Part shown: piece after piece, positions 48,549 to 50,321 of the stretch | Position numbering within the stretch: the first letter of the stretch is position 1 | Layout: every line of letters begins with the position of its first letter | Assembly (NCBI RefSeq): GCF_000027125.1 | Contig: NC_017626.1 | DNA from: Escherichia coli 042 | GTDB taxonomy: Bacteria; Pseudomonadota; Gammaproteobacteria; Enterobacterales; Enterobacteriaceae | DNA length: 64,000 bases | Direction: 5' to 3' (one strand) | The notes under the pieces: generated by a model | What the model saw: only the letters and a program-made list of their open reading frames with translations | The model's database searches: none | Told to the model about the DNA's origin: nothing | Position numbers and translations under genes: made by a program

Positions 48549-48800
48549 ATAAATCTCCATTTATCATTTATGTCGTAAATATGTAGTCCATGCAAAATAC
48601 GTCATTTGAAGCTGGCGTTATCATAATTGGGAATTTGCGACTTTAATAAGTGGAAGTGTGAGCGGAGCGAGCCATTTTATTAGGCATTTGTGCTGAAGAG
48701 GGAAAAGTACGCGAATTTATTATCTCTGTAAATAATATGAGGTATTTTATATATTTATTATATATATTGTACTTCGGCAAATACTGAGCACAATTAATCA

Positions 48801-49118
48801 ATGCAACCGGTGTTTCTTTTTAAAAAACGTACCGGAGCAATGGGCGGTCATGTCGCTGGCACCGCAGGATTCTGTGTTGCTGTGCCAACCTTTTATTCAT
48901 GGTCAATGAGTGAGGGGATTGATAAAGAAACCAGGTCGTCAGAGCGCACTGATTATCCGCATTACGCCAGTGACGTTGCACTGGCTTTTGGTTCACGAGT
49001 GGTTGGCCTCGAACTGGCAAAAATGATTGTGGATGCGTGGCTGGGCGCGCAGTACGAATGCGGTCGTCATCAACAACGCGTGGAGGCGATTACGGCAATA
49101 GAGCAGCGGAAAAATTGA
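48801..49118 (+). pseudogene. rpiB: Remnant of ribose-5-phosphate isomerase B: C-terminal RpiB-like blocks fused to unrelated 5' sequence; catalytic core missing
   Basis: Translation contains SSERTDYPHYAS and AFGSRVVGLELAKMIVDAWLGAQYE.GRHQQRVEAITAIEQR as recalled for RpiB, but lacks the Cys-containing central region and the native N-terminus; sits where alsK-alsB, rpiR and rpiB lie in K-12. Confidence 0.6.
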
Positions 49119-49186
49119 GATTCATCCACTACTTGCATGGATGAGTAATGACTAATATGGATAGAGTTTCTTTTTGAGGTTGGCTA

Positions 49187-49516
49187 ATGAAACGCTTTCC
49201 GCTATTTCTTTTATTCACCCTGCTCACGCTGTCCACCGTTCCGGCCCAGGCCGATATTATCGACGACACCATTGGCAATATTCAGCAGGCGATTAACGAT
49301 GCTTATAACCCTGACCGTGGGCGAGACTATGAAGATTCGCGCGACGACAGCTGGCAGCGTGAAGTGAACGACGATCGGCGCAGACAATATGACGATCGCC
49401 GCCGCCAGTTTGAAGATCGCCGCAGGCAGCTGGACGATCGCCAGCGCCAGCTTGATCAGGAGCGTCGGCAACTGGAGGATGAAGAGCGGAGAATGGAAGA
49501 TGAGTATGGGCGGTGA
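49187..49516 (+). CDS. yjdP: Secreted small protein YjdP (109 aa) with a periodic Arg/Asp/Gln-rich repeat
   Basis: Translation MKRFPLFLLFTLLTLSTVPAQA... then DDRRRQ(Y/F/L) heptad-like repeats. Confidence 0.8.
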   Translation: MKRFPLFLLFTLLTLSTVPAQADIIDDTIGNIQQAINDAYNPDRGRDYEDSRDDSWQREVNDDRRRQYDDRRRQFEDRRRQLDDRQRQLDQERRQLEDEERRMEDEYGR

Positions 49517-49550
49517 TGTTGAGTCTAGAGCAGGCATCGCCCCTCACCCA

Positions 49551-50321
49551 TCACTCCACCCCAATCTCCACCCCAATCTCCATCCCATCAAACCCCGCCT
49601 CAAACCCCGACGGCAGTGCGTTTTCCATCAGCCACGCATCAAACTGGTGGCTGATATGGGTCAGAATCACCCGTGGCGAGCGGATAACCTGATTCAGCGC
49701 AAGCACGGTATTTAAATCACAGTGATTACGCGGTGCATCCTCGCGCGGCGGGTGGCTGCAATCAATCACCATTACCTGTGGCTGATTATTGCGTAAAAAT
49801 TTCAGCGTTTTTTCCGGCAGGCCTGCGGTGTCAGACAGCCACGCCACCCGGCTATGTGCCGTTTCCAGTAAATAGCCGAAAGTGAGTTTCGAATGATTGA
49901 GCGGCAGCGGCGTGACCTGTAATCCCTGCAAATCAAACACTACAAACGGTTCCACCGTGTGGCTGAAATCAAGCAGGCCCGGATGTTTAAACAGATCGTC
50001 GCAGCCCTGTTCATCCGGCGGGCCGTAGACCGGGATCGAATCGCCCACGCCCCAGCGCAGCGGAAACAGCCCCTGCACGTGATCCATATGGTAGTGCGTC
50101 AGCAAAAACTGCTGGAACGATCCGGGCGACCAGCGATCGGCGAGATCGTGCAGCCCGGCGTCGATCAGGGTGATCGCGTCGTTAAACTTCACGACGCCGC
50201 TGCATGGCTGGCGGCGATACTGTGGTGAGCGCCGCGCTCTGACGCAGGCCGCGCACTCGCAGCCCCATGCCGGAACGCCCTGTGCGCCGCCGGTGCCGGT
50301 GAGCGTGAGGGTCAGACTCAT
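49551..50321 (-). CDS. phnP: Phosphoribosyl 1,2-cyclic phosphate phosphodiesterase PhnP (256 aa here)
   Basis: Metallo-beta-lactamase motif THYHMDH; C-terminus carries a 12-bp tandem duplication (EIGVEIGVE). Confidence 0.9.

What the first reader, a model, noticed from the sequence alone, without database searches (positions are those of the whole stretch)
49187..49516. yjdP encodes a secreted protein with a periodic DDRRRQ-type charged repeat
Seen in sequence: after a typical signal peptide, the C-terminal half is almost entirely repeated D-D/E-R-R-R-Q-(Y/F/L) units (RRRQYDDRRRQFEDRRRQLDDRQRQLDQERRQLEDEERR), encoded by imperfect 21-bp tandem DNA repeats. This predicts a highly charged periplasmic helix or coiled-coil and a locus prone to repeat-number variation. 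It sits at the edge of the als/rpi deletion.
Basis: seen in the sequence. Interest (0 to 1): 0.2.

Follow-up and report, generated by a model that had tools for sequence, protein, structure and literature searches.

The report
YjdP: small exported charged-repeat protein
This is the already catalogued E. coli gene yjdP, which encodes a small exported protein whose tail is a long, highly charged helix built from seven-residue DDRRRQL repeats; its function is untested, but it looks like a cell-envelope stress gene.

Summary
Window 49187-49516 (+) is a 109-aa ORF with a Sec-type signal peptide. Its tail holds six to seven heptads (DDRRRQY/DDRRRQF/EDRRRQL...) encoded by imperfect 21-bp repeats, far beyond chance. 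It is not new. NCBIfam NF041443, "DDRRRQL repeat protein YjdP", matches at E=1e-43. Pfam PF28054 covers it, and 5404 of 5426 complete E. coli genomes carry it.

AlphaFold predicts one continuous helix, residues 55-108, with pLDDT above 90. That helix has about 35 i/i+3 or i/i+4 salt-bridge pairs and only one hydrophobic residue per heptad. It is therefore a salt-bridged rod with a leucine stripe, not a canonical coiled coil.

The predicted repeat-number instability is only weakly borne out. One-unit losses and a two-unit gain exist but are rare (about 18 of 5405 records). The common length polymorphism lies elsewhere. It is a perfect 9-bp Phe-Thr-Leu repeat (3-9 copies) inside the signal peptide of B2/ST131-type alleles, and it is degenerate in this window.

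I also found a conserved RcsB-box-like site at fixed spacing upstream of yjdP in five genera. This fits the published ~10-fold induction under LolCDE inhibition. The als/rpiB deletion next to the gene is real and common.

The parts
49116..49129 (+). RcsB-box-like 14-mer TGAGATTCATCCAC. It overlaps the TGA stop of the rpiB remnant and is centred about -42.5 from the inferred transcription start.
   Evidence: It matches TN(G/A)GAN4TC(T/C)NA (PMC7913699) at 7 of 8 specified positions. It is present at -71 to -73 from the ATG in 9 loci from 5 genera. Conservation is 0.90, against 0.54-0.57 in the flanks. The pattern alone is not rare: 13 occur in the 64-kb window.
49153..49158 (+). Putative -10 hexamer TAATAT (TAnnnT)
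   Evidence: A TAnnnT hexamer starts exactly 23 nt after the end of the box in all 9 loci, although the spacer sequence is not conserved. The generic sigma-70 scan did not call it. It is inferred, not mapped.
49176..49179 (+). Shine-Dalgarno GAGG, 7 nt before the ATG
   Evidence: Read directly from the sequence. GAGG or GGAG is kept in the other genera.
49187..49516 (+). yjdP coding sequence (109 codons plus stop)
   Evidence: ORF list. NF041443 at 147.5 bits against a cutoff of 90. Annotated as yjdP in 5404 of 5426 E. coli genomes. dN/dS is 0.06-0.25.
49187..49252 (+). Signal peptide, residues 1-22 (MKRFPLFLLFTLLTLSTVPAQA), with predicted SPase I cleavage after A22
   Evidence: Hydropathy and the -3/-1 rule. 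A-x-A followed by D/N is conserved across homologues while the h-region diverges (signal-peptide dN/dS 0.38-0.68).
49214..49237 (+). Degenerate remnant of the 9-bp Phe-Thr-Leu repeat (TTCACCCTG CTCACGCTG TCCACC) within the h-region
   Evidence: The alignment with B2-type alleles shows 3-9 perfect TTCACGCTG copies at this site in those alleles. The window allele has no perfect copy.
49253..49306 (+). Conserved N-terminal amphipathic helix of the mature protein (D23-Y40, DIIDDTIGNIQQAINDAY), with an a/d-type spacing of I25, I29, I32, I36 and A39
   Evidence: This segment is invariant within Escherichia and Citrobacter and recognisable in all genera. AF2 predicts a helix but with low confidence, pLDDT 54-63.
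49307..49369 (+). Acidic, Asp/Arg/Ser-rich linker (N41-N61). Its first part, residues 41-54, is modelled as coil; from residue 55 the AF2 model is already the long helix.
   Evidence: AF2 models residues 41-54 as coil with pLDDT about 51. Length and sequence vary between genera.
49370..49513 (+). Heptad array, residues 62-109: about 6.9 units of 21 bp, of DDRRRQ(Y/F/L) type, decaying toward the 3' end
   Evidence: TRF and the repeat finder, register table, permutation tests, AF2 helix 55-108 with pLDDT 91-97, and 35 opposite-charge i/i+3 or i/i+4 pairs against 20.3 +/- 3.4 in shuffles.
48773..49118 (+). als/rpiB deletion scar. It comprises 138 bp of filler (48773-48910) and then an rpiB remnant (48911-49118) that has an additional internal deletion of about 150 bp.
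   Evidence: blastn against K-12 W3110 shows that K-12 alsK through alsR plus the 5' end of rpiB (about 6.6 kb) are absent. RefSeq annotates the same 105-aa remnant in other strains. About 1574 genomes share this layout.

Best explanation
**What it is.** Window 49187-49516 is yjdP, a genuine and conserved protein-coding gene.

**Export and shape.**
- The product is made with a Sec-type signal peptide. That peptide is most likely removed by signal peptidase I after Ala22 (inferred).
- This would release an 87-residue, about 11-kDa, very hydrophilic soluble periplasmic protein. Its GRAVY is -2.3, 55% of residues are charged, and the net charge is about -8.
- The mature protein has three parts. 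The first is a short conserved amphipathic N-terminal helix, which is the likely contact surface for self-association or a partner. The second is a variable acidic linker.
- The third part is a C-terminal helix of about 54 residues (roughly 8 nm) built from six to seven DDRRRQL heptads.
- In this helix nearly every Asp/Glu has an Arg three or four residues away. The rod is therefore stabilised by intrahelical salt bridges, like a charged single alpha-helix.
- The single Tyr/Phe/Leu/Met per heptad forms one narrow hydrophobic seam. That seam could support weak, possibly antiparallel, pairing.

**Regulation.** Expression is most likely driven by the Rcs envelope-stress phosphorelay. A conserved RcsB-box-like palindrome abuts the -35 position of an otherwise weak promoter. 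This would make YjdP one of the small periplasmic proteins produced when the outer membrane or lipoprotein trafficking is damaged.

**Repeats.** The 21-bp DNA repeats are old and diverged. Selection holds their number at about six, and they vary only rarely.

**Shown and inferred.**
- Shown here: the ORF, the repeat, family membership, conservation and purifying selection, the predicted helix, the salt-bridge pattern, the rarity of unit-number variants and the conserved upstream motif.
- Inferred: cleavage and periplasmic location, RcsB dependence, oligomeric state and biochemical role.
For: **Identity**
- NF041443 'DDRRRQL repeat protein YjdP' at E=1.2e-43, 147.5 bits against a cutoff of 90.
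- Precomputed PF28054:YjdP on the homologues.
- RefSeq annotation in 5404 of 5426 complete E. coli genomes.

**A real gene**
- dN/dS is 0.06-0.07 against Citrobacter, where dS is saturated.
- In the repeat region dN/dS is 0.013 for K-12 against Citrobacter, where dS could still be estimated. For the window against Citrobacter the dS was saturated and gave no ratio. It is 0.09 for the window against EDL933.
- Homologues occur in Escherichia, Shigella, Citrobacter, a Klebsiella MAG, Buttiauxella, Cronobacter dublinensis and Entomohabitans. All have the same three-part layout.

**Export**
- The n/h/c regions and the AQA|D site are present.
- The cleavage motif is conserved while the h-region drifts.
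- There is no Cys for a lipobox and no twin-arginine motif (read from the sequence).
- The literature also lists a 'putative signal peptide' (PMC5105897).

**Helix**
- AF2 gives H55-108 with block pLDDT 91-97.
- There are 35 opposite-charge i/i+3 or i/i+4 pairs against 20.3 +/- 3.4 in shuffles (2 of 20,000 reach it).
- Only 4 like-charge pairs occur against 19 expected. The hydrophobic residues fall in one stripe.

**Pairing**
- A linker-fused two-copy AF2 model gives pTM 0.45, and the helices score pLDDT 78-91.

**Regulation**
- The box TGRGAWTYMTCCNC lies 23 nt upstream of TAnnnT in 9 loci from 5 genera, whatever the upstream gene.
- The RcsB box consensus comes from PMC7913699.
- RcsB homodimer sites usually lie just upstream of -35 (PMC5651002).
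- yjdP is induced 9.5-10.6-fold by a LolCDE inhibitor, alongside osmB, bdm, the wca genes, rcsA and ivy (PMC5105897).
Against: - No experiment on YjdP localisation, cleavage, structure or phenotype was found in the searchable literature.
- The signal peptide was judged by rule only, and a cut two residues earlier is equally allowed.
- The RcsB-like box misses the last consensus base (C instead of A). Such patterns are common by chance: 13 occur in 64 kb against 18 expected.
- The generic sigma-70 scan found no promoter here, and no transcription start was available.
- The genes induced by Lol inhibition also include sigma-S and Cpx targets, so the induction need not be Rcs-dependent.
- Asp is a weaker helix former than Glu. 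AF2 confidence on a low-complexity charged helix can be inflated.
- The linked-dimer model is biased toward a hairpin by its linker and had no control. Its helix pLDDT was lower than in the monomer model.
- One E. coli genome carries an IS1 insertion in yjdP, so the gene is dispensable at least in that strain.
Confidence: 0.6

Rival explanations
1. The C-terminal heptads form a canonical stable coiled-coil oligomer, a parallel dimer or trimer like Lpp or a leucine zipper. Oligomerisation would then be the main purpose of the repeat.
For: - Strict 7-residue periodicity with Tyr/Phe/Leu/Leu/Leu/Met at one fixed heptad position.
- With Leu placed at 'd', position 'e' is acidic and 'g' is basic. 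That is the leucine-zipper g-e' charge pattern (read from the sequence).
- Weak hits to coiled-coil families: FlbB, HlyD and RNase Y N-terminal region.
- The linked-dimer AF2 model packs the two helices together.
Against: - There is only one hydrophobic residue per heptad. The second core position (a or d) is Arg in most units.
- The density of intrahelical i/i+4 salt bridges is typical of single alpha-helices.
- AF2 gives the isolated helix higher confidence (91-97) than the paired one (78-91).
- The pairing seen was antiparallel and forced by the linker.
Confidence: 0.2
2. The 21-bp array is a contingency or VNTR locus. Its main significance would be frequent copy-number change between strains.
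For: - Variants do exist. 102-aa proteins show three different one-unit deletion junctions (P0040 type, P0025/P0063 type, P0028). A 123-aa E. albertii protein has two extra units. There are also small slips (P0022 lacks one Arg; P0023 lacks five residues).
- All unit changes are in frame.
Against: - The units are only 71-76% identical at the DNA level.
- The 309-bp allele is at least 95% matched in only about 18 of 5405 complete-genome records.
- In a spread sample of 60 records, none differed by a multiple of 21 bp. All length variants mapped to the signal peptide.
- The heptad number is conserved across genera.
- Changes in multiples of three bases cannot switch the gene on and off.
Confidence: 0.1
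3. The N-terminal hydrophobic segment is not cleaved and instead anchors the protein in the inner membrane as a signal anchor. The charged rod would then project into the periplasm.
For: - B2-type alleles expand the h-region from 15 to as many as about 36 residues through (Phe-Thr-Leu)n. That length is typical of membrane anchors rather than cleavable signals.
- AF2 models residues 4-40 as nearly continuous helix.
Against: - The window allele has a 15-residue h-region, followed by Pro and a conserved A-x-A motif. This is typical of cleaved signals.
- The cleavage motif is the most conserved feature of the N-terminus.
Confidence: 0.1

Closest known systems
NCBIfam NF041443 / Pfam PF28054: DDRRRQL repeat protein YjdP (E. 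coli K-12 b4487)
   Same: This is the same gene. It is 98% identical to K-12 YjdP, with the same length, signal peptide, N-terminal motif, heptads and position next to phnP.
   Different: It differs by two substitutions (G55S and S61N). The upstream als operon is deleted, and the REP-like elements between yjdP and phnP are absent. The family has a name but no tested function.
Charged single alpha-helix (CSAH / ER-K) domains, e.g. in myosin VI/X and caldesmon
   Same: A long helix with alternating acidic and basic blocks and a dense network of i to i+4 salt bridges. It has very few like-charge i/i+4 pairs and is predicted confidently as an isolated helix.
   Different: It uses Asp/Arg/Gln rather than Glu/Lys/Arg and keeps one hydrophobic residue per heptad. 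It is periplasmic and bacterial. Behaviour as a single helix is untested.
Small Rcs/Cpx/sigma-S-induced periplasmic proteins of E. coli (Spy, CpxP, OsmY, Ivy, MliC, YpeC, YmgD)
   Same: It is a small exported protein that is co-induced with these genes on LolCDE inhibition. A conserved RcsB-box-like site lies at the promoter.
   Different: It shows no sequence or Pfam relationship to any of them. It has no LTxxQ motifs of the CpxP/Spy type. Its dependence on RcsB has not been demonstrated.
Braun's lipoprotein Lpp (a periplasmic heptad-repeat rod)
   Same: A helical rod of about 55 residues with heptad periodicity in the periplasm, of similar predicted length (about 8 nm).
   Different: Lpp is lipidated, forms a trimer with a full a/d hydrophobic core, and is cross-linked to peptidoglycan through its C-terminal Lys. 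YjdP has no Cys and no C-terminal Lys, and has only one hydrophobic position per heptad.

Membership tests
YjdP family (NF041443 / PF28054) | Profile score above the curated cutoff over the full length | tested here: met
   147.5 bits against a cutoff of 90, E=1.2e-43, covering residues 1-103 and model positions 1-101 of 101. The local Pfam copy lacks PF28054 and gave only noise, but precomputed PF28054 hits are present on the homologues.
YjdP family (NF041443 / PF28054) | Signal peptide, the DIIDDxIGNIQQAINDAY motif and (D/E)(D/E)RRRQL heptads, at the chromosomal position next to the phn cluster | tested here: met
   Alignment of 18 homologues. The gene is convergent with phnP in the window, other E. 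coli strains, Citrobacter and Buttiauxella, and lies near the phnH remnant or yjdM in Cronobacter and Entomohabitans.
Sec-dependent, signal peptidase I-cleaved signal peptide | Basic n-region, hydrophobic h-region of about 10-15 residues, small residues at -3 and -1, no lipobox Cys and no twin-arginine motif | tested here: met
   MKR, then F4-V18 (Kyte-Doolittle peak 2.6), then P-A-Q-A followed by D. There is no Cys and no RR motif. A-x-A is conserved. The test was rule-based only, because no SignalP tool was available.
Sec-dependent, signal peptidase I-cleaved signal peptide | Experimentally demonstrated export and cleavage | not testable with these tools
   No report was found. PMC5105897 says only 'putative signal peptide'.
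Canonical coiled coil | Heptad periodicity | tested here: met
   The lag-7 identity is 26 against 7.7 expected, reached by 0 of 100,000 shuffles.
Canonical coiled coil | Hydrophobic residues at both the a and d positions | tested here: not met
   Only position 7 of each unit is hydrophobic (Tyr, Phe, Leu, Leu, Leu, Met). The partner core position is Arg, Gln or Glu.
Charged single alpha-helix (CSAH / ER-K) | A long helix with excess i/i+3 and i/i+4 opposite-charge pairs and a deficit of like-charge pairs | tested here: met
   35 opposite-charge pairs against 20.3 +/- 3.4 in shuffles. 4 like-charge pairs against 19.2 expected. AF2 helix 55-108 has pLDDT above 90.
Charged single alpha-helix (CSAH / ER-K) | No hydrophobic seam, and monomeric in solution | tested here: inconclusive
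   A one-residue-per-heptad seam is present. The linked-dimer AF2 model pairs the helices antiparallel at moderate confidence. The solution state cannot be tested here.
RcsB regulon (direct target of the RcsB homodimer) | An RcsB box TN(G/A)GAN4TC(T/C)NA at or just upstream of the -35 region | tested here: inconclusive
   7 of 8 specified positions match, and both essential cores (RGA and TCY) are intact. The site is conserved in 5 genera at a fixed 23 nt from TAnnnT. However, the last base mismatches, the pattern is common by chance, and the transcription start is inferred.
RcsB regulon (direct target of the RcsB homodimer) | rcsB-dependent induction and RcsB binding in vitro or in vivo | not testable with these tools
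   The only available data are the 9.5-10.6-fold induction by a LolCDE inhibitor together with Rcs genes.
Hypervariable VNTR / contingency locus | Near-perfect tandem units with frequent copy-number differences among close relatives | tested here: not met
   For the 21-bp array, the units are 71-76% identical and the variant allele is in about 18 of 5405 records. The criterion is met only by the separate 9-bp repeat in the signal peptide of B2-type alleles. That repeat is degenerate in the window.
CpxP/Spy (LTxxQ) periplasmic chaperones; hydrophilins | LTxxQ motifs or a Pfam match for CpxP/Spy; Gly above 6% with high hydrophilicity for hydrophilins | tested here: not met
   There is no Pfam or NCBIfam hit to these families. 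Gly is 3.4%, although GRAVY is -2.32.

The most novel reading that the evidence does not exclude
yjdP is a direct, evolutionarily conserved RcsB-activated gene that has not been recorded as such in the searchable literature. Its product would be a periplasmic salt-bridged alpha-helical rod of about 8 nm. The rod would self-pair or dock through its conserved N-terminal helix, acting as a structural or protective factor during outer-membrane or lipoprotein-trafficking stress. In B2/ST131 lineages, a 9-bp VNTR inside the signal peptide (3-9 Phe-Thr-Leu units) would additionally tune or disable its export.
Probability: 0.3. Interest if true: 0.35.

Novelty: already known. Interest (0 to 1): 0.17.

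Why it matters
**As stated, the finding is ordinary.** The gene and its repeat are already named in NCBIfam and Pfam and are present in almost every E. coli.

**Residual value.**
1. YjdP is one of the many small exported 'y-genes' with no tested function. The conserved RcsB-like box, together with the published induction, gives a concrete and cheap hypothesis to test.
2. A heptad helix of Asp/Arg/Gln is an unusual bacterial, periplasmic example of a charged single-helix-like design.
3. The 9-bp repeat that lengthens a signal-peptide core from 15 to about 36 residues in pandemic ST131-type strains is a natural experiment. It shows how much h-region length export can tolerate, and it is a possible typing marker.

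Tried and rejected
- **Local Pfam-A scan.** It returned only sub-threshold noise such as a phage tail tube initiator, DUF4140 and RNase Y N-terminal region. The local copy predates PF28054.
- **PDB sequence search of the mature protein.** No hits at E<=1.
- **Generic sigma-70 and terminator scan.** It found no promoter upstream of yjdP. The only terminator-like sites on the minus strand lie inside the repeat and are artefacts of CGCCGCC palindromes.
- **Literature.** 'yjdP' appears in 7 papers, 2 of which are about rice. None studies the protein. 'b4487' gave nothing relevant. A search for the 9-bp repeat string gave nothing.
- **Source names.** Labels such as 'RNase H-like nuclease', 'Skp family chaperone' and 'membrane protein involved in colicin uptake' were rejected. 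They are composition-driven mis-annotations.
- **Overlapping antisense and alternative-frame ORFs.** These include 49211..49537 (-) and 49389..49715 (+). They were rejected because only the yjdP frame matches a conserved family, and nucleotide differences between species are mostly synonymous in that frame.
- **Other regulator sites.** Pho, Cpx and sigma-E sites were looked for by eye in the upstream region and not seen. The RcsAB box matches less well (8 of 14 positions) than the RcsB homodimer box.
- **CsiR.** One data set shows 0.28-fold expression of yjdP, with a genic ChIP peak, on CsiR over-expression (PMC5217608). This was not pursued.
Full report
**1. The observation**

The ORF lies at window 49187..49516 (+). 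It is 109 codons long and starts with ATG, with a GAGG ribosome-binding site 7 nt upstream.

From D62 the sequence reads in strict heptads: DDRRRQY, DDRRRQF, EDRRRQL, DDRQRQL, DQERRQL, EDEERRM, EDEYGR. Tandem Repeats Finder reports a 21-bp period at 49370-49442, with 3.5 copies and 78% matches. The repeat finder shows 21-nt spacing.

The periodicity is far beyond chance.
- The protein has 26 lag-7 identities against 7.7 in shuffles (0 of 100,000 shuffles reach it).
- The DNA has 79 of 123 lag-21 identities against 42.9 in codon shuffles (0 of 20,000).

The first four units share 15-16 of 21 nt, and the later ones only 10-11 of 21. The array is therefore old and decayed at the DNA level.

**2. 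What it is**

NCBIfam model NF041443, named "DDRRRQL repeat protein YjdP", matches at E=1.2e-43 (147.5 bits against a cutoff of 90) over the whole protein. Homologues carry a precomputed Pfam PF28054 (YjdP) assignment. The local Pfam copy is older and gave only noise.

The gene is annotated as yjdP in 5404 of 5426 complete E. coli genomes. The window protein differs from K-12 YjdP by two residues. The repeat is therefore already described and curated.

The family is narrow. Only 52 of 1.84 billion representative proteins match, and many of those are fragments. Named members come from Escherichia, Shigella, Citrobacter, a Klebsiella MAG, Buttiauxella, Cronobacter dublinensis and Entomohabitans.

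All members share one layout:
- a signal peptide ending A-x-A followed by D/N;
- a conserved DIIDDxIGNIQQAINDAY helix;
- a variable acidic linker;
- about six (D/E)(D/E)R(R/Q)RQL heptads.

Purifying selection is strong. dN/dS is 0.06-0.07 against Citrobacter, where synonymous sites are saturated. In the repeat region it is 0.013 for K-12 against Citrobacter, the comparison where dS could still be estimated, and 0.09 for the window against EDL933. This is a real protein rather than a by-product of repetitive DNA.

**3. Signal peptide**

No signal-peptide predictor was available, so I applied the standard rules.
- The n-region is MKR.
- The h-region runs from F4 to V18, with a hydropathy peak of 2.6.
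- P19 is followed by A20-Q21-A22 and then D23.
- There is no Cys, so it is not a lipoprotein, and there is no twin-arginine motif.

Across genera the h-region diverges (dN/dS 0.38-0.68) while the A-x-A motif is kept. That is the usual signature of a cleaved signal. A cut two residues earlier (VPA|QA) is also formally allowed.

The mature protein would be 87 residues and about 11 kDa. It has 55% charged residues, GRAVY -2.32 and a net charge of about -8. Export itself is inferred, because no experiment was found.

**4. Helix or coiled coil**

AlphaFold2 with an 18-sequence alignment predicts one continuous helix from residue 55 to 108, with pLDDT 91-97. Residues 41-54 are modelled as a low-confidence coil, and the N-terminal helix also has low confidence.

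In the long helix there are 35 opposite-charge pairs at i/i+3 or i/i+4, against 20.3 +/- 3.4 in shuffles. There are only 4 like-charge pairs against 19 expected. This is the pattern of charged single alpha-helices.

Only one position per heptad is hydrophobic (Tyr68, Phe75, Leu82, Leu89, Leu96, Met103), which forms a single stripe. The other core position would be Arg. The defining a/d core of a canonical coiled coil is therefore not met, although the heptad period is.

I treat this as weak evidence that antiparallel pairing is possible. The linker favours a hairpin and there was no control.

**5. Repeat-number variation**

- In a spread sample of 60 records, 46 genes were exactly 330 bp. Every longer gene (339, 348, 357 and 366 bp) differed in the signal peptide, not in the 21-bp array.
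- Proteins that are one heptad shorter (102 aa) do exist, with three different junctions (P0040 type, P0025/P0063, P0028). One E. albertii protein has two extra heptads (123 aa).
- The commonest short allele is matched at 95% or better in only about 18 records.
- Across genera the heptad number stays near six.

The array can change by whole units, but it does so rarely and appears to be constrained.

**6. A different repeat is the variable one**

B2-type alleles, including ST131 strain EC958, carry perfect tandem copies of TTCACGCTG (Phe-Thr-Leu) inside the signal-peptide core. I saw 3, 4, 5, 6, 7 and 9 copies, giving genes of 339-393 bp and h-regions of up to about 36 residues.

About 397 records are at least 99% identical to the five-copy allele. 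The window and K-12 have a degenerate version, TTCACCCTG CTCACGCTG TCCACC (49214-49237), and a stable length. I found no mention of this repeat in the searchable literature.

**7. Surroundings**

yjdP is convergent with phnP, the last gene of the phosphonate operon, which lies at 49551-50321 on the minus strand.

Upstream, the window lacks alsK through alsR and the 5' end of rpiB, about 6.6 kb in K-12. In their place are 138 bp of filler and then an rpiB remnant with a further internal deletion of about 150 bp. About 1574 complete genomes share this layout, and RefSeq annotates the same remnant.

The interval between yjcS and yjdP is a known variable spot. In O157:H7 it holds the OI-167 island with the hybrid kinase LmvK (PMC10128022). 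There the junction falls within the first ~27 nt of yjdP, which changes the N-terminus to MKRHSTLF.

A hybrid kinase also sits directly upstream of yjdP in Citrobacter europaeus and Entomohabitans.

**8. Regulation: a new lead**

The upstream genes differ between taxa, yet a 14-mer is conserved at -71 to -73 from the ATG in nine loci from five genera. Its consensus is TGRGAWTYMTCCNC, and it occupies window 49116-49129. A TAnnnT hexamer begins exactly 23 nt after it in every case (window 49153-49158).

Conservation of the box is 0.90 and of the hexamer 0.81. The spacer and flanks score only 0.54-0.57.

The box matches the RcsB homodimer box TN(G/A)GAN4TC(T/C)NA (PMC7913699) at 7 of 8 specified positions, including both essential cores. 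If the hexamer is the -10 element, the box is centred near -42.5. It would then abut the -35 region, where RcsB homodimer sites usually lie (PMC5651002).

This agrees with the only expression data found. yjdP rises 9.5- and 10.6-fold after LolCDE inhibition, together with osmB, bdm, the wca genes, rcsA, ivy and spy (PMC5105897).

Several caveats apply.
- The pattern alone is common: 13 occur in the window against 18 expected.
- The generic promoter scan found nothing here.
- No transcription start or rcsB-mutant data were available.

**9. Most likely mechanism**

YjdP is most likely an Rcs-induced, Sec-exported, soluble periplasmic protein. Its conserved amphipathic N-terminal helix is the probable contact surface. 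Its C-terminal 8-nm rod is held straight by Asp/Glu-Arg salt bridges and may pair weakly through its leucine seam.

The biochemical role is not established. It could be a spacer, a binder of charged envelope polymers, or a protective polyampholyte.

One genome has an IS1 insertion in the gene, so it is not essential.

**10. Verdict**

The feature itself is already known and named, so interest is low.

The conserved RcsB-like promoter architecture and the signal-peptide VNTR are modest additions that I did not find described in the searchable literature.

Noticed in passing
window 49214-49237 (degenerate here); L001:1501-1857, L004, L005, L006, L015, L016: B2/ST131-type yjdP alleles carry a perfect 9-bp tandem repeat TTCACGCTG (Phe-Thr-Leu) inside the signal-peptide h-region, with 3-9 copies (genes of 339-393 bp). 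About 397 complete-genome records match the 5-copy allele at 99% or better. I found no mention of this repeat in the searchable literature.
   Followed up: partly
window 49116-49158: A conserved RcsB-box-like palindrome sits exactly 23 nt upstream of a TAnnnT hexamer. This arrangement is kept in 5 genera even though the upstream gene differs (rpiB, a hybrid kinase, or none). The TGA within the box serves as the stop codon of rpiB in the window and K-12, and of the hybrid kinase in EDL933.
   Followed up: partly
window 49554-49587 (3' end of phnP, minus strand): A 12-bp tandem repeat CTCCACCCCAAT (2.8 copies, 95% matches) gives this strain a 256-aa PhnP ending ...[11 protein letters not shown]. 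In the six other E. coli loci compared, PhnP is 252 aa and ends ...GMEIGVA, ...GMEIGVE or ...GMEIEVE.
   Followed up: partly
window 49517-49550 compared with L002:1831-1976, L003 and L014: The yjdP-phnP spacer is 27, 34, 76, 146 or 158 bp in different strains. The difference depends on the presence or absence of G-rich REP-like elements (GGGGAGAGGGTTAGGGTGAGGGG), which one paper lists as a G-quadruplex-hairpin locus (PMC5100583). The window has the short 34-bp form with no obvious terminator.
   Followed up: partly
window 48773-49118: The als operon deletion leaves a 105-aa chimeric ORF (48801-49118) built from rpiB fragments. RefSeq annotates it as 'RpiB/LacA/LacB family sugar-phosphate isomerase'. 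It lacks the N-terminal half and about 50 internal residues, so it is almost certainly non-functional.
   Followed up: partly
L003:1-1416, L012:2667-4931, L011:3085-4917: A hybrid sensor kinase/response regulator (LmvK of O157 island OI-167) lies immediately upstream of yjdP, on the same strand, in EHEC, Citrobacter europaeus and Entomohabitans. This may be the older arrangement. In EHEC the island junction lies inside the first ~27 nt of yjdP.
   Followed up: no
L017:1574-2679 (E. coli FLI21): yjdP is interrupted by an IS1X2 element in one complete genome, so the gene is dispensable in that strain.
   Followed up: no
window 2999-3037: Three overlapping matches to the RcsB-box core pattern (TGAGAACTATCT, TCAGATAGTTCT, TGAGATAACTCT) cluster within 40 bp. 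Their context was not examined.
   Followed up: no
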